DNA of 64,000 bases from Amoebophrya sp. A120 (Eukaryota; Protista; Dinoflagellata). Location of the stretch: positions 16,182,142 to 16,246,141 of the forward strand of contig CAJINV010000001.1 of the NCBI GenBank assembly GCA_905178155.1, given 5' to 3'. Position numbers and translations under genes: made by a program. The notes under the pieces are model-generated. The model searched no databases. It was not told the DNA's origin and saw only the letters and a program-made list of their open reading frames with translations. Shown here piece by piece: positions 4,061-50,500 of the stretch. The first letter of the stretch is position 1. Every line of letters starts with the position of its first letter.

Positions 4061-4911
4061 TTAGGGTATACCTACAAGCAGCGTTACAAGTTCAAAGGCA
4101 GAAAAGTTTTCGTACAAGAATCTAGCACGTAATATGAGGATGATACAATACACAGGGTTTAGGAAAAAAGTCTGTGTTCAGACTTGGCGCGCTAGTTCGA
4201 CTTTTGTTTCATTACAAGACCACTATGCGTGGCCCGCACTGCATACACGCACCGGGAAGCAATAGTCTTATTAGTGTAGTGTTATGGTGGAGGGTTAACT
4301 GCTCTGCGGTGCCCGAGTCTGTCGAACACAAGTAGTCGTACTTGGCGCAAGTTTTAGGCGCTACGCTACTCGCCACACCGCACCCGTACCCGTACCCTTT
4401 GAAAGGCATGCCTGCGTGTGACGGACCAGAAGTGGCGTAGTTCTGTTCAAAAGGTTGTAATCCCGGATGCTGCGATAGACTTTTATTGTCTGGTCGGCGC
4501 CACTGTGAAAACACGCATAGAAAATGATGGGTTCAGGGATTTACTTACAAGGCAGCGCTACTAGCACCAGAAGAACAAAACTTCCACGGGGAAAGCACTT
4601 CTACACTAATATGAGGATGATACACTAGACAGGGTTTAGGGAAAAAAGTCTGTGATCAGGCTTGGCGCGCTAGTTCGACTATTGTTTCATTACAAGACCA
4701 CTGCTGGTGGCCCGCACTGCATACATGCATCGGGAAGTAATAGTCTTATTAGTGTAGTACTTTGGCGGAGGTGCGTAACACCACCCGAGTCGGGTACAAG
4801 TGGTTGTACTAGGCACAATGATTAGGTGCTACACTACTCGCCACGCACGCCCATACCATACCATACAGATCTACGGTTCGTCTTGCTTGGCTAGTCAACT
4901 GCGAAAACATG
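4060..4911. repeat. Diverged tandem duplication, unit ~480 bp (copy 1 ~4060-4515, copy 2 ~4531-4911)
   Basis: A highly similar core TAATATGAGGATGATACA...GGGTTTAGG...GGCGCGCTAGTTCGACT...TTACAAGACCACT...AATAGTCTTATTAGTGTAGT starts at ~4130 and ~4607; weaker similarity extends on both sides. Confidence 0.9.
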
Positions 4912-19756: not shown

Positions 19757-20832
19757 TCCCAGTGATGTTGAGAGGAAATCAGTAGAGTGTGGTTGTTTCT
19801 GTTATTTCTTGTTGTTTCCGCAGTTTGATGTTTCTGGAGGCGATCTTAGATTAGCGCTCGGTTGGGTGAGGTCGCCGCCGCTATCGTCAGCCGGTGGATC
19901 TAGTATGTTCGCAGCAAACCTCCGAAGTGGATATTTGGAAGCCCGGAACTTTCTCTATTGTAAAGACCGACGAACACAAGAATATTCACTTCATAACTAC
20001 ATTTGTGCTTCTTGGAGCAGGGAAGGGGCAGTTTAGTAGATTCTTCCTTGCAAGCATTGGGTCGAATTGTTTGTAAAGTAACTTAGCTGCGGAAGCGCCG
20101 CGCGAGCCCTGAAGCTTTGTCACCGAACAAAAGATTACGAGGGATGAAGCTGATGCTGAAGATACATGTTTGTTTCCGTATTCTGGTAATGTCAGTTTCA
20201 ATTGCTGCTATCGCAAAATCCCTGCGGCTGTTGCAGCGACTCACCTGCCATTTGTTTGTACCGGATCCATATCTTGCACTTCTGATTTTCAGAAGTTTCG
20301 ACTGAGGGCGTGATGCTCACTTTGTCCGTGATGAACTTTAATTTTTCTGATGGTTGACCTCGACAGAACTTGTTTCGATCCACGTCTTCAGCACACAAGC
20401 ACGACATCAAGGTGAACAAGATCATTGAGGCGTACAGATGCGACGTTTTCCCCTTGCGAAAGGCGTGCAGTTTTTGCACTGTGAACTTTGTTGATCGTTC
20501 TGCGCTTTTTCGATTTTTGTTGAGCAAAGTTTTGACGTAGACGTTTTTGTTTGCGCAAGGATGGAAGAAAAACAAAAACTGTGTGAAGTAGCACATACAC
20601 CAATCGGATCTCGTCCACATCGCGACGCACTTATTGCTTGTCACGAGATCATACACAACATACGAAGAAATTCAGGCACCAGGTCTGGATCGTCACCGCA
20701 TGCTATTGTAACTTAAGAAAGTGATAATTCAACAACACCAGCATACGCAAGTAGATTTGCCTTTGCCGCAGCATACTTGTTCCTTTGTACGCGTTTTGGA
20801 TTAATTCCATAAAGAACTTACCAAGAGGAAAA

Positions 20833-22935
20833 ATGTTGTCCACGTTGCGATCCGCGGGTCTCCGAGGTGCGAGCCGGCAGGCCGGGAGTGCGATGCGCAC
20901 TGGCGCCCTTACACGGTTGAATGCGGTACTTGCTCCTTCATCGCAGAACGCGTGCAGTAGCTGTCGTAACGGATGCGCGGCATGCAGCAGCGTGGCGCGA
21001 GCTTTCTCTTCTGCCGCAGTGAAGAAGCTTCAGACAGGTTTGTGAAGAGAAAAAACAATAATGCTTTAAGTAGACTTCTCGACCCGCAGAGCTTTAGCAT
21101 CCCCGCCTGGCTGTTTCATCCCCTTGCATACGGATTTTATCGTTTTAGGAGCTACAACTACTGAATTATACGCACTCACCTTTTGTTGATGTTTTCATGA
21201 GGTTTCCTAAACCTACATGCGAAGGAATTTAGTCGTGTTGCTATCCACCAAAACCAGGTTTGGCGCAGGAGCTCCAGCACGAGAAGGACAACTATGAGAA
21301 ACCCGCAGAGCTTTCTAAGGTGCCAGCCGGATGGAACTTCACAGAGGATGCAGGAAACGTGAACATGAAGCTCGAGAAGACGCTTGGTAGTGCAGTCTTT
21401 TTTCACGGACAGTGTTTTTTCTCTCGTGGGAAGTACGTATTTTATACACCTACATGCACAGTCTTCAGATCCTACTTTGGTCTACTTTTATGTTAGCGCC
21501 TCTCTATTCAGATGCACCTCTTGATGCCATCTTGAAAAAAACAGCTGGTGACCGAGTGTGTAAGGTTGAGTGGCAGCTGGTGAGCCCGCCAATGGCTTAC
21601 GAGGACGATCCGGAGTATCAGGAGGGGGAGACCCCTATGGATTGCAAAAGTGTCTGGGTCTGGAAGATTGCAACTTGTCATGGTAAATCTGAAGCATGCA
21701 AAAATCTGTTTTGCATGAGCGGCAAAAGCTGTCCACTTTTGACCAAGTTGGAAGGGAGTTTCTCATGCAGGACAGGCATGGCGGAGACTTCGCAGAGTCT
21801 GTCATGCTAAGTCCCGCATTCCAGACCTCATGGGTCATGGAAAATCTGCATGACAAGTCTACACTCTTCCAGACCCAGACATTTTTACATTTGATAACCC
21901 CAGAGGAGCCGACGGAAGTGGAGCTCACCGTCACCGTGGAAACCAAGGATGGAGCCGAAGGTACTTACAACTTCGAACACTTATTTCGACGTGGGAGCAT
22001 ACTTCTACTTGTTTAAGCCTCGTCACGAAACGTCCTTGTAGCAGGAGCCAGACTTCTTGCTTTTTTTTTCATTCGTTTGAGTGCAAACAAGCATGCTGAT
22101 ACTGCATCAAAGGTTTGACGTATTTCTGCTCGACGTCGAGCATGGAGGGGGCGAAGGAAGGTCCCAAAACGTCGCTTTCCATCGGGAACTTGAAGACGTG
22201 GAGCTCCGTCGAGGAGCGCGACAATGCCGCAGCTTACAACGGTCCGGAGTTCGATGACCTGGATGACCGATTGCAGGAGGCCATGGAAGAATACCTCGGT
22301 ACTACACATACAATGGGAGCTGCGCATTTTCTCTGATTGTGCTAGAAAATTATTCGTATGAAAATGAAAATGTTCTCAATCAGTGCATGATGGGATGATT
22401 GTCGTGTTGCAGAAGTAGCTCGATTTACGTCGACTTTATGAACCCCACCATCTAGAAATGCAAATGATTCGACATCACAAATTGAATGAAAACAGCGGAA
22501 ATCGGAGTCTCGGAGGAGGTACAGGAGTTTGTCAATGCAAGTGCTGCGGACAAGGAGCAGCGCGAATACATGCGGTGGATGGAGAATCTGAACAAGTTCG
22601 TCAAGGTATTGTGAGGAAAAATCCCCCCTCCCCATATTGAAATATTTCGTCTGAAAATTTGTGATGCAGATTTGAGGTGACAAATCCTGTCTGTCTTGCA
22701 AGAAGGCAAAGCCAGAGAATCCGCCGCATTATGCCGGCGGTTTGTGATGCGGTTGGGCTTACAGAGCCGACATCTGTCACGCTAGTCCCCTACGTCAAAA
22801 CCTCTCGACCCAGGCTTGGCATATGCCTGCAGTCCTCTCCAGCAAGACAGGCCTGATTTGTGTACGCAAATCCAGCATCAGAAACTTCGTTTCGATATGG
22901 GGAGGGGGGATTTTTCCCTTTGATGCAAGGCCTAG
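20833..22935 (+). CDS. MAM33: Mitochondrial acidic matrix glycoprotein MAM33/p32 (C1QBP family); exons 20833-21037, 21258-21386, 21545-~21635, ~21902-21960, 22113-22298, 22496-22605, probably 22930-22935
   Basis: Arg/Ser/Ala-rich transit peptide ending RAFSS; LAQELQHEKDNYE; YNGPEFDDLDDRLQEAMEEYLAEIGV; DKEQREYMRWMENLNKFVK. Confidence 0.92.
21636..21896. mobile_element. MITE-like introner occupying MAM33 intron 3
   Basis: ~47-bp imperfect terminal inverted repeat with perfect 17-bp core TGTCTGGGTCTGGAAGA (21651-21667 and 21865-21881); flanking 5-bp direct repeat ACCCC (21631-21635, 21897-21901). Confidence 0.85.
22606..22926. mobile_element. Second, unrelated MITE-like introner at the 3' end of the MAM33 CDS
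   Basis: Perfect 23-bp inverted core GGAAAAATCCCCCCTCCCCATAT (22615-22637 and 22895-22917); imperfect pairing extends ~100 bp inward; flanking direct repeat AAG (22603-22605, 22927-22929). Confidence 0.85.
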
Positions 22936-25525: not shown

Positions 25526-26783
25526 ATGTACGCCAAGTTTGGGAATTTCGCGAGCAGCATCGCGCAGACGGGACAACGGTTTTCGTGGCAGAGATGTAGG
25601 TACATGGCGCAGCAGTGGCGGGATCGCTGGTCGTGGTACCGCTTCTGGCAAATCAGGTACGGATCTTCCTCGAACGCATAAGCTGCACTGTAGACATTTT
25701 TGCACTTTGAGTGCGCTCTGGTGAAGATGCAAATACCTCTGTGAGTCGTGTTAATATGTAGTGAGGTCACCGAACGGTTCTAACCAGGGAGTTTTTTTGA
25801 CAGCCAGACAGCAAAACGGCCGTCAGTTTTCAAGCGGCCGGAAGCGTTTTTTGACATAAAAAATTTCCAATTATCAAGCGGGCGGGGCTTTGAAGTCAAA
25901 CAAGCCCGGTCGAAAACTATCGATTCGCACTTGATAAAACGACGCAGGGGAGCCGGCAAAAGGGGCGCCCTTCTGAGGCGCCCACCGCCTTGATTTCTGG
26001 CGGTTTGGGCCGCCAAAAAAGGGGCACGCAAAAAACTCGCCCAAAATCAGAACAGCGAAACAGCATGGCACGGCCGCGATTTCGGAGCATTTTGGGCGGC
26101 CGCGAAAGCGGCCGCCTTTTCGCCGGTTTCAGAGCCTGGGAAGCTTTGCAAAAAGCGCCGGCGAGGAAAATAAAGACGCAAAAAAGAAAAAGCGCGCCAG
26201 ACGCGCAGAGCCAATCCGCATGCTACGGGCCCGATTTTTCCTCGCTTTTTGGACGCCCCCCGTGGCGCCCGGATCGGCCCCATAGCATGGGGGCTGGCTT
26301 TCGGAAAGGAATTTCGGAAATTTGCCAAAATTTGCGACGCTTACCAAGCGGCCGCCATACCGTGCGGCCTAACGTTACTCACGGCGGTATGGCGAGCCCA
26401 GAAAAAGCAAAGCCGCGGCCAAGGCGACGGCCGGCAAGAAAACGCCCACGACCTCACTACCCCCGCCCCGGCGGCTATATTTGGTTTGCTATTGGATCTT
26501 TTTCCGTAGGCGATGAATGATTTTCTCTGAAGCGGAATGTTGCTTTGGGCGATTATATCACAGAGAAAATTTCTGGGAAGGATGTACTTACGTGATCATC
26601 GGGGGGTGCGTCCTCTGCAGCGCCTTCTCGTTGTTCGAGGTCCTGCGGCTACAGCGCAACAACATCCAGCGCATGTGGATTGCGTACGTGCGGAAGGAGC
26701 GCGAGCGGTCCGAGTTGATGGAAATCATCAAGCAGGCACGTGCTGCGGGCCTCATACCGCCCACCGAAAACGAAATGCAGTGA
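25526..26783 (+). CDS. Small (~116 aa) single-TM protein, possibly mitochondrial; exons 25526-25656, 26564-26783
   Basis: MYAKFGNFASS...WSWYRFWQIR joins in frame through GT-AG intron 25657-26563 to ENFWEGCTYVIIGGCVLCSAFSLFEVL...; strong coding-like codon usage. Confidence 0.7.
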
Positions 26784-47500: not shown

Positions 47501-50500
47501 GCCACCCCCGGTGGCGAGGCGGAGCAGTGGGCGGGCAGCTGCACCTGGTTCGAATCAGGGGTGGCCCGGCTCAAATGTGGTGCCGCAAGGTCCACCATCC
47601 GGCATGGGGGTGGTCCGTGCGCCCTCCGCTGCGCCCGGGTCGCAACAATCTCCGATCATGTCTCCATCCAATCCCTCGGTCTTGCGGAATTCCAGCAGGG
47701 GCCTAAAACAGCTCGCAACGCCTACGGAGGCCGAAAAGGTGTCTTTACGTCCGACCACACGCAATGTAACGGAGCTAAATCACGACGGCATACCAGGAGA
47801 ACGAGCTATGTCACTGCGCACTGGCGCGGGGCAAAACGAATACTCGCCAAAACCGTCCGTCCTGGAGGGGATGCCAAACCTCAGGTAATCATACGATATT
47901 TCTTCATTGATGAAATTCATGTAAGTAGTATTTTCCCACGTTGGGTTCGATTTTTCACAGACGAGACCTTTTATTCGGAGCTCATTTTTCACATTACGAT
48001 TACGAACTGAGCCGGACGAAATTTCTTGTGCTTGATCCATGTTTCAGGAATTTTTGGATCTTTTTTGCTTACTGTCTGCGATGTTCCTTGTGAAGCCTGG
48101 GTTCACTTTGTCTTTTTTGATCACCTGACCCTGAGCAAACTTCAACGCAAATGACGATCACTGACAGGCCGACGGACAGGATACACAGGAGTATTGACGA
48201 CGAGGCACAGTATCCGCGAGCCCATTCTCTGCGCCCCGTCGAGGTCTCACCTAATGCGTCGGCGATCGCTTCGGAGCAGGACGGGCGGCGAAATTTGTCT
48301 TTGCGCAGCGTGTTCCCGAAGCTAACCGGAATGATGCAACAGCGCCCGTCCGCGACCGAGAGTCCCTTTCACAACGCTCCAGCGCTGAAGGAGCGCTTTC
48401 TTTCTCTGAAACAGTCCCTTCTGGGAAAAGACCCCACAGCTGATGCCGATAGAAATGGAGGCCCCGGGGGGCGGCGGAAGTGGCGCATCATTGCTCTAAT
48501 GGGTGCTGCCATGCGGGGCCTCGGGCGCGTCGCCGTCGGCATCGACGAGATTGCGCCTGAGCAAGCAACTCATAAGCAAGAAGCGAACGCCCAGGACGAT
48601 CTCCCGTCTGGACCGCCGCAAATGCGAAACCAGACGTTATCAGGTGACGCCGCGTTTGTGCCAGAATCTCTACGAGAGAGCATGCCGCCCGGTACAAATC
48701 AATTGGTTTCTGGAAAGTAAATGAGTTTATCTTTTTTCCGCTTATCTTGCTTATCTAGATTCATGCTACTGTGAGGCTGGGAAGACGACATTCATTTCGC
48801 ATGCTCAGTATCCATGAGGATGCAAAATAAAATTCGGATTTCATACGAAAACGACAGACGCGAAGATCACGGTGCGAGAGAGGATTCGCACGAACCGAGG
48901 CGTGGTCGGGGGAAGCGTTAGACAGTTAGCTACGCAGTTCGAGGAGCGCGACTTGAATCCGTACCCTGAGCTATCGCTGTGAAAAAAGTGTACCCGGAGT
49001 GCCATGTTTGCATTGTCGCATTTGAAGGATATTAGCAGTTACAGCTGATCTCTGTTTTCTCCGAGGAGGACCTTCTCCTTCGGTCTGCTTTTCGAGATTA
49101 TAGCACCCCGGGCACAGTTTTCATAGCGATATCAGCCTCGCGCACCCCGGTCTACGCGTGCCTCTGTAGCCTCGGTCGGGAATACCGCTGACGGGCTTGC
49201 CATGTTGGCCGGTGCCCTGCAAAATGACGCTTTGGCGCGCAGCTCGACCGGCTCCTCGCTCGCAAGCCAAACGCTGGTTGCGGACGCGGCGGCTCGGGCG
49301 AGCCAGGCCCTGGCCCGCGATGCCGATCGGCCTTCCCGTGGTGGCAGCCCGATTCTGCACAAGCAGCTGACGCACGGTGCGCCATCGCTTGCCGATATCA
49401 GTGCCGCTCTTGACGAAGTCCAGAAGAGGAGCTCTTTGACGTCCGCCGAACGGTATGAAAGCGGTTTGGTGGTTTGGTTCGAAAACTCAGCCAAAAACGG
49501 ATCTTTTGTTTTGGCATTGGGTATGTACATCAATCATGCAAGTACAACTTGAGGACGAATTAATTTCATGGGACATCAGTGGCGTAAGTACAGCTGCACC
49601 GCATCAGCTCACATATTATATTTGCAATCAACAACCCAAAGTCGAGCTCCCTGCGACGTTGGTTGTCGTTTCTAGGTACACTTTCGCATTTCCGTACCTT
49701 TAAGTGTAATATCATCATGAAAGAAATAAAGGATGCCATCGAGCTAAATAAGGACTATGGGTGGGCACACAACAGAGTGAATCGGGAAAAAAAAAAGAGC
49801 AAAAGATCCCGGTTATACACTTGACGTTTTTGCAACCGTGAGATTTTCGTTGCATAGAAGGATGACGAACTCGAACGGGACCTCCAACGCCAGTGGGTCA
49901 GGAGTGTTTTCCAAGGCGACGACGGGGTTGCTAAGCAGCCTCAAGGCCAACGCGGCAAAGGTCTCCGGACAGTTCGCAAAGCTGACGACCCGCGATCGTC
50001 TCACGGACCAACGCGATCGGCTCACGGACCAGCAGAGTTTGATTAAGATGTCGCGGCAGAGCCCTTCTCCTCTGCCGCATGCGGATGTTGACGCCGATGC
50101 GGCGGTCGCCGCGTTTGAAAACCAATTTGCCATGACCCCGGCGGCACAGGCTGCGTTTGCGGAAGAGAACTACGTGCAACTGGCTGAAGTGACAGGGCCA
50201 CTGGCCTCCACGAACGCGCCAACCAGCGCCGCCTTCGGCGGCTCCGCTTCTGCGCACGAGCCGGTCTCGTTGGGTGACGTGATCGAGGGAAATTATGACT
50301 CTGGCAGCCCAGGGCAACTACAAGGCTACAACCCGTATCGCGGCTGGACGGGGTACTACAAGGGGCCGGCGCTTCCGGGCTTCGGCAAGGGGGGCGGGGG
50401 AGGCCCAATCAGCGCAGGCAGTCCCGACTACTCAGCTGGGAATGGGATGGGAGCAGTCGCTGCTGCAGAAGAGCCGCAGTCGGAACACCAGTTTGTCGTG

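What the first reader, a model, noticed from the sequence alone, without database searches (positions are those of the whole stretch)
21631..21903. MITE inserted in coding sequence and apparently removed as an intron (introner 1)
Seen: a 261-bp element with TIRs (TATGGATTGCAAAAGTGTCTGGGTCTGGAAGA... / ...TCTTCCAGACCCAGACATTTTTACATTTGATA) and a 5-bp ACCCC duplication splits MAM33 and changes the frame. Removing the element plus one duplication copy (266 nt) restores ...QEGETPEEPTEVELTV, with no GT or AG at the boundaries. A canonical alternative also exists (GT 21650 to AG 21903), which leaves a footprint, ETPMDCKKEPTE. Known: TIR/direct-repeat non-canonical introners are described in Amoebophrya. 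Inference: splicing may be guided by the TIR hairpin.
Basis: partly seen in the sequence, partly recalled or inferred. Interest (0 to 1): 0.8.

Follow-up and report, generated by a model that had tools for sequence, protein, structure and literature searches.

The report
Transposon intron spliced without GT-AG
A small hairpin-shaped transposon sits inside a mitochondrial-protein gene of the plankton parasite Amoebophrya and is cleanly missing from transcript assemblies although it lacks normal splice signals; this intron class and this gene model are already published, and a loosened spliceosome that reads the hairpin ends likely removes it.

Summary
Confirmed, and already known. The 261-bp element (21636-21896) has 35-nt inverted ends and an ACCCC duplication. 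Fully spliced contigs in 2 of 2 RNA-type runs that cover the site (one sample code) lack exactly 266 nt, with no GT-AG in any of six registers. The canonical alternative was not seen, and a DNA-type run keeps the element. The spliced 261-aa protein is identical to the published Amoebophrya sp. A120 model GSA120T00011758001, and orthologues lack the 4-residue footprint. The ends match the A120 introner motif (TAT, 7 nt, AAA; Farhat 2021). In another assembly, 79 of 96 relatives have exact 5-bp duplications, and they lie in both orientations in host genes. The splicing mechanism is still open. A second introner in the same gene is GT-AG when cut 1 nt before and 4 nt after the element, and a third fits that cut in a gene model. 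This favours a relaxed spliceosome with a fixed 1+4 cut, but my direct tests of that register were inconclusive. Earlier notes of this scan report the same class and register on other DNA of this genome.

The parts
20833..22935 (+). MAM33 (mitochondrial glycoprotein, PF02330) coding region, 7 exons, 261 aa; product identical to Amoebophrya sp. A120 model GSA120T00011758001 / CAD7929568.1
   Evidence: exons from transcript contigs; Pfam; identity
21631..21635 (+). left copy of the 5-bp target-site duplication ACCCC
21636..21896 (.). introner 1: 261-bp non-coding TIR element with TAT-N7-AAA ends; member of a large family
21636..21670 (+). left terminal inverted repeat
21862..21896 (-). right terminal inverted repeat
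21897..21901 (+). right copy of the duplication ACCCC
21635..21900 (+). 266-nt removed intron, drawn in the inferred 1+4 register (CT..CC); six registers from 21631-21896 to 21636-21901 give the same mRNA
   Evidence: length shown by joint 21630/21897 in X4 and X5; register inferred
21650..21903 (+). in-frame GT-AG alternative that was not observed; its GT is predicted to be paired inside the TIR stem (probability about 1.0)
22607..22925 (.). introner 2 in the same gene: 319 bp, different family, same end grammar, TSD CAAGG (22602-22606 / 22926-22930); removed as 324 nt and reads GT..AG at 22606-22929, between the last two codons
48972..49131 (.). introner 3 in another gene: 160 bp, TSD copies TGAGC / TCAGC with one mismatch; the published model P0008 keeps the upstream letter, so the cut lies 2 or more nt into the duplication; CT..AG in the 1+4 register
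   Evidence: gene model only, no RNA laid here

Best explanation
This is an Amoebophrya A120 introner: a 261-bp inverted-repeat element flanked by a 5-bp direct repeat, missing from transcript contigs together with one repeat copy at a junction without GT-AG, and likely excised by a relaxed spliceosome that measures its cuts from the predicted hairpin ends. Shown: the anatomy, the 266-nt skip, restoration of the orthologue-like protein, and a multi-copy family with 5-bp duplications at unrelated targets. Inferred: (1) a transposase supplied in trans inserted it, probably an integrase-like DDE enzyme given the 5-bp stagger; no partner was found; (2) the TIRs pair in the pre-mRNA, bring the exon ends together and bury the competing GT at 21650; (3) the cuts fall 1 nt before the first TAT and 4 nt after the last ATA, so the element supplies intron +2 U and +3 A, and possibly a branch A 7 nt from the 3' cut, while +1 and the last two bases are whatever the target held. 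Because both ends carry the same motif, either orientation would splice and no footprint is left. Odds: about 0.95 for a precisely removed non-canonical introner, about 0.6 for spliceosomal removal, about 0.5 for the full 1+4 reading.
For: Joint 21630/21897 (266 nt, 5 nt ambiguous) in one fully spliced contig each of X4 (1355 nt, depth 57.3) and X5 (1374 nt, depth 161.7). In X4 the record coordinates leave 148 = 87 + 61 nt between the flanking exons, so nothing is inserted; the canonical form would give 160. X1 (DNA-like) has contigs running into the element from both exons and depth 0 at this joint. The product equals the published model. Four of five close homologues have the same spacing at the site, A25 has one extra residue, and none carries the footprint. 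Family: 96 distinct copies with both ends, 79 with an exact 5-bp repeat (77 different targets), and no exact repeat at 4 or 6-10 bp. Orientation in strand-called hosts: 16 same, 19 opposite. Only 5 of 92 exact-TSD copies offer any GT/GC-AG register. Two family-1 elements interrupt an RPB1 gene in L069, and removing each plus 5 nt gives one open 379-aa frame. Register: introner 2 is GT..AG at 1+4; introner 3 has the cut 2 or more nt in and ends in AG at 1+4. Farhat 2021 found nearly all spliceosomal proteins and U2/U4/U6 but no U1, and the same repeat layout in 15% of canonical A120 introns.
Against: The RNA evidence is assembled contigs, not reads. X4 and X5 share one sample code, and the tool labels them RNA only by guess. 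Contigs drop rare isoforms, and 87 joint rows were hidden. The other 5 RNA runs laid (X16, X17, X18, X9, X10) do not bridge the site. The cut register cannot be seen at this element because the duplication is perfect. There is no selection toward canonical letters at 1+4: G at +1 in 28 of 92 (28.2 expected) and AG in 10 of 92 (7.9 expected). The end asymmetry predicted by the model is not significant (terminal T changed 0 times at 5' and 3 times at 3' in 116 copies, p = 0.25). A TATG donor-like end is not favoured at the sense 5' side (22 against 29 of 110). Many copies of other families end without a TGAT-like motif. The symmetry of the ends is equally explained by transposase recognition. 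No lariat evidence exists here.
Confidence: 0.6

Rival explanations
1. Same element and same precise removal, but by a non-spliceosomal nuclease-ligase that recognises the hairpin base, as proposed for euglenid nonconventional introns or as in tRNA-type splicing.
For: No GT-AG in any register; no enrichment of canonical letters; symmetric ends used in both orientations; very stable stem; U1 not detected in A120.
Against: Introner 2 and 15% of canonical A120 introns share the layout and read GT-AG; the spliceosome is nearly complete; the Euglena signature is absent in all six registers; no candidate enzyme was identified here.
Confidence: 0.28
2. The skip is a reverse-transcriptase template switch across a strong hairpin between two short direct repeats (a known artefact, recalled and not from a call), and the real mRNA retains the element.
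For: The hairpin-plus-direct-repeat anatomy is what promotes this artefact; all RNA evidence here is presumably cDNA-derived.
Against: Retention cuts the protein to 199 aa and removes the Pfam-matching C-terminal part; the skipped form is the assembled, otherwise fully spliced contig in 2 of 2 covering runs; relatives interrupt RPB1 twice; more than 60% of A120 introns are non-canonical.
Confidence: 0.05
3. The transcript comes from an element-free allele or paralogue, or the element is excised from DNA.
For: The family is mobile by its anatomy; no RNA-level intermediate was seen.
Against: The DNA-like run X1 shows both exon-element junctions and depth 0 for the joined form; the listed transcript pieces have 0 differences from the window exons.
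Confidence: 0.04
4. Transposon-derived but canonical intron, spliced at GT21650-AG21903 with a 4-residue footprint.
For: The pair is in frame.
Against: Not among the 8 joints or the 15 shown; the donor is predicted to be buried in the stem; no homologue has the footprint; such pairs are common here (167).
Confidence: 0.03

Closest known systems
Introner elements among the non-canonical introns of Amoebophrya sp. A120 (Farhat et al. 2021, PMC7789003; TIR DNA introner families in Gozashti et al. 2025, PMC12130899)
   Same: Same organism and gene model; IR motif TAT + 7 nt + at least 3 A; 3-5 nt direct repeat; repeated; hairpin; length near the 240-nt A120 mean; non-GT-AG junction.
   Different: The pairing arms here reach about 35 nt against the 8-20 nt motifs reported. 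The repeat resolves as a strict 5-bp TSD. The paper leaves the border position variable or unknown (Fig. 3 legend), whereas the window's three elements fit one 1+4 cut.
MITE-derived introners of Micromonas and Aureococcus (as summarised in PMC11282704 and PMC7789003)
   Same: Non-autonomous TIR elements with a TSD that are spliced out; part of the splice junction is taken from the duplication.
   Different: Those use canonical splice motifs; this element has none in any register.
Euglenid nonconventional introns (PMC12501133 abstract; PMC11282704 passages)
   Same: Non-GT-AG ends, terminal pairing, TSD-like repeats, cut set by spacing from a paired motif.
   Different: The signature N3CDG ... 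CH'GN5-6|R is not present; unrelated lineage; no copy family is implied there.
Fritillaria borealis non-canonical introns (PMC11282704 passages)
   Same: MITE-derived non-canonical introns removed by an adapted U2 spliceosome.
   Different: They have preferred ends (AG-AC, AG-AT); here the end letters follow the random target.

Membership tests
Amoebophrya A120 introner element | Host is Amoebophrya A120 | tested here: met
   Spliced protein identical to CAD7929568.1
Amoebophrya A120 introner element | RNA-supported intron without GT-AG | tested here: met
   Contigs in X4 and X5; six registers checked; contigs only, one sample code
Amoebophrya A120 introner element | Inverted repeat starting TAT, 7 nt, at least 3 A | tested here: met
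   Both ends against section 11 of the paper
Amoebophrya A120 introner element | 3-5 nt direct repeat at the borders | tested here: met
   ACCCC; 79 of 96 relatives exact at 5 bp
Amoebophrya A120 introner element | Repeated in the genome | tested here: met
   9943 X1 contigs laid, piled on the TIRs of introners 1 and 2; 96 copies in another assembly; no second copy inside the window
Amoebophrya A120 introner element | Predicted hairpin joining the exon ends | tested here: met
   z = -8.46; 75 of 96 copies pair from base 1; prediction only
Amoebophrya A120 introner element | Position strain-specific (empty site in orthologue DNA) | tested here: inconclusive
   Protein homologues only; no MAM33 match in the 145 loci; no orthologous DNA
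MITE (non-autonomous TIR DNA transposon) | Short, TIR-bounded, constant TSD, many copies at unrelated targets | tested here: met
   251-293 bp, 77 distinct targets among 79
MITE (non-autonomous TIR DNA transposon) | Autonomous partner with the same TIRs and a transposase | tested here: inconclusive
   7 TIR pairs over 450 bp in 253 kb; the two longest show no ORF of 100 aa or more wholly inside; whole genome not held
U2 spliceosomal intron | GT/GC-AG ends | tested here: not met
U2 spliceosomal intron | Lariat with branch adenosine, spliceosome dependence | not testable with these tools
   No raw reads of this strain covered the gene
Euglenid nonconventional intron | 5' N3CDG signature | tested here: not met
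   Read by eye in the six registers against the abstract

The most novel reading that the evidence does not exclude
A120 introners are spliced in one hidden register, 1 nt before and 4 nt after the element. The transposon's own symmetric end serves as donor (+2 U, +3 A) when read forward and as a fused branch point-acceptor ruler when read at the 3' end. A U1-less spliceosome can then excise any insertion, in either orientation and at any target, without a footprint, even when an in-frame GT-AG pair is available as here.
Probability: 0.4. Interest if true: 0.7.

Novelty: already known. Interest (0 to 1): 0.27.

Why it matters
The element itself adds little: the class and this gene model are published. 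It is useful as a test substrate for an open question, namely how Amoebophrya removes tens of thousands of non-GT-AG introns. This one well-expressed gene holds four ordinary introns, one introner with no canonical end and one introner that is GT-AG by luck of its target, and it has an unused in-frame GT-AG pair. If the fixed 1+4 cut and a branch A at the element end hold, the system is a relaxed spliceosome that makes transposon insertions harmless.

Tried and rejected
The whole genome was not held, so no direct genome-wide copy count was possible. Raw RNA runs X16, X17 and X18 laid only 17, 3 and 2 reads, all on element ends, and do not cover MAM33 at 90% likeness. X9 covers 20700-21352 and X10 covers 21918-22298, but neither bridges the site. 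In all, 8 of the 18 listed runs were laid. The TIR pattern found 0 matches in viral contigs, and Rfam found 0 matches in the window. The frame-restoration control was weak: an open frame existed in 90 of 97 cases for element + 5 nt, but also 90 for +2, 87 for +8 and 75-83 for the other offsets. Register tests on mismatched duplications in the loci were inconclusive: mismatches spread over all five positions (6, 3, 2, 6, 2 in 18 strand-called copies), solved-structure homologues were too distant or ended before the informative residue, and the last homologue search returned one 100%-identical protein from a contig of the same length as the query's. A donor-like TATG bias at the sense 5' end was rejected, selection for GT or AG in the duplication was rejected, and end asymmetry was not significant. 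No autonomous partner was found. In one search, 12 of 15 candidates scored 9-12, like the shuffles (1-12 per shuffle), and were dropped; the three kept scored 18-26.

Full report
Observation. The sequence holds a 261-bp element at 21636-21896 with ACCCC directly on both sides. Its arms are 35 nt and 83% complementary, the longest of 49 inverted pairs in the window. The strand folds far better than 200 shuffles (z = -8.46). The host exons match Pfam MAM33. Retention stops the protein at 199 aa, removal of 266 nt gives 261 aa, and the GT21650-AG21903 route gives 265 aa. None of the six equivalent cut registers has GT/GC-AG or AT-AC ends.

Is it removed? I laid 8 of 18 listed runs. Two RNA-type runs cover the site, and both show the same result: one contig that lacks all six introns of the gene and joins 21630 to 21897 (X4, depth 57.3; X5, depth 161.7). 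The X4 record coordinates leave exactly 148 nt for the two exons beside the element, which excludes the canonical form (160 nt). The DNA-like run X1 has contigs that run from each exon into the element and depth 0 for the joined form. Limits: these are contigs, X4 and X5 carry one sample code, their RNA label is the tool's guess, rare isoforms are dropped, and 87 joint rows were hidden. The three raw-read runs and the two environmental runs do not bridge the site.

What gene and organism? The spliced protein is identical to Amoebophrya sp. A120 GSA120T00011758001 / CAD7929568.1, so the published annotation already contains this intron. That model may rest on the same RNA data and is not independent. 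Among five close homologues, two AT5 proteins and two environmental proteins have the same spacing at the site, A25 has one extra residue, and none has the 4-residue footprint. This is protein evidence; the empty site in DNA was not obtained.

Is it a mobile family? There were 113 alignments of 180 nt or more, giving 96 distinct copies with both ends, 67-91% identical and 251-293 bp long. Of these, 79 have an exact 5-bp repeat, 12 one mismatch, 2 two mismatches and 3 no match; no exact repeat appears at 4 or 6-10 bp. The 79 targets are 77 different 5-mers. In the window's own organism, 9943 X1 contigs were laid, piled on the arms of introners 1 and 2. A wider scan found 224 such elements in the loci, 110 with a host-strand call. 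Family-1 copies lie 16 in the same and 19 in the opposite orientation, and only 5 of 92 exact-repeat copies offer any GT/GC-AG register. Two family-1 elements (262 bp, and 972 bp with an internal insert) interrupt an RPB1 gene; removing each plus 5 nt gives one open 379-aa frame. No autonomous partner was seen.

How it likely works. Insertion by a trans-acting transposase with a 5-bp stagger is inferred. Gozashti 2025 describes an A120 TIR family with LTR-element-like ORFs, a lead that I did not link to this family. In the pre-mRNA the arms are predicted to pair (75 of 96 copies pair from the first base), which buries the competing GT at 21650 (pairing probability about 1.0). The cut position is hidden by the perfect repeat. 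Two other elements in the window constrain it. Introner 2 (22607-22925, repeat CAAGG) is removed as element plus 5 nt and reads GT..AG when cut 1 nt before and 4 nt after the element. At introner 3 (48972-49131) the repeats differ at position 2 and the published model keeps the upstream letter; at 1+4 it ends in AG. In that register introner 1 is CT..CC, the element gives +2 U and +3 A, and a TTGAT motif places an A 7 nt from the 3' cut, resembling the general branch consensus (recalled). I favour a relaxed, U1-less spliceosome, because Farhat 2021 found most spliceosomal parts but no U1, and the same layout in 15% of canonical A120 introns. My tests of this register in the loci gave no support beyond consistency: no enrichment of G or AG in the repeat, no donor-like bias, end asymmetry 0 against 3 (p = 0.25), and inconclusive homologue tests. 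A hairpin-reading nuclease-ligase remains a serious rival.

Comparison with what is known. Six of seven testable features of A120 introners are met and one is inconclusive (see membership table). Papers: PMC7789003, abstract, sections 5, 10, 11, 12, 16 and 32, and passages of its supplement; its figures, including S19-S25 on repeat positions, were not visible and may bear on the register. PMC12130899, passages and 21 of 58 A120 rows of one supplementary table; two files were not searched. PMC11282704 and PMC11453091, passages. PMC12501133, abstract and outline. Roy et al. 2023 was not held. I did not find a fixed 1+4 cut stated in what I read (searches); Farhat's Fig. 3 legend calls the border variable or unknown. 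Earlier unreviewed notes of this scan report the same class and the same register on other pieces of this genome. I had noted the register from introner 2 before that look-up, and the notes are not counted as evidence.

Verdict. Interest 0.27. The remaining value is as a compact test case for the unsolved splicing mechanism.

Noticed in passing
window 22602-22930: Second introner in MAM33 (319 bp, repeat CAAGG) that looks canonical only because its target supplies G and AG; 7 of 8 relatives in the loci have exact 5-bp repeats.
   Followed up: yes
window 48967-49136: Third introner (160 bp) with a mismatched duplication, in the 1947-aa LIM-domain gene model P0008; a natural probe of the cut register. 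No RNA was laid there.
   Followed up: partly
window 25755-26485: About 730-nt stretch 89% identical to L067 2118-2848; a repeat of another type, with no TAT..ATA inverted ends seen.
   Followed up: no
L069 468-729 and 1491-2462: RPB1 interrupted by two family-1 elements; the second carries about 700 nt of unique internal sequence and still has intact ends and a 5-bp repeat.
   Followed up: partly
L029 267-2050: Fatty-acid oxidation multifunctional enzyme gene with three elements; at the first, the two repeat copies differ at two positions and the left side reads like a normal donor.
   Followed up: partly
run X1, table 5c: Element ends joined through only 25-40 nt of other sequence, which suggests neighbouring introners separated by micro-exons elsewhere in the genome.
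   Followed up: no
run X16 on 21646-21896: A run with the same species label has related element ends but no MAM33 reads at 90% likeness; the loose sequence beyond both ends looks like an extended inverted repeat.
   Followed up: no
window 21034-21258: The first ordinary GT-AG intron has an 8-nt repeat at its borders, possibly an old insertion scar or a repeated intron boundary.
   Followed up: no
runs X4 and X5 at 22274-22569: A second, divergent MAM33-like contig touches two conserved patches; a host transcript or a paralogue.
   Followed up: no
window 4130-4844: Two-copy direct repeat with about 478-nt spacing (139 nt at 88% plus flanking blocks).
   Followed up: no
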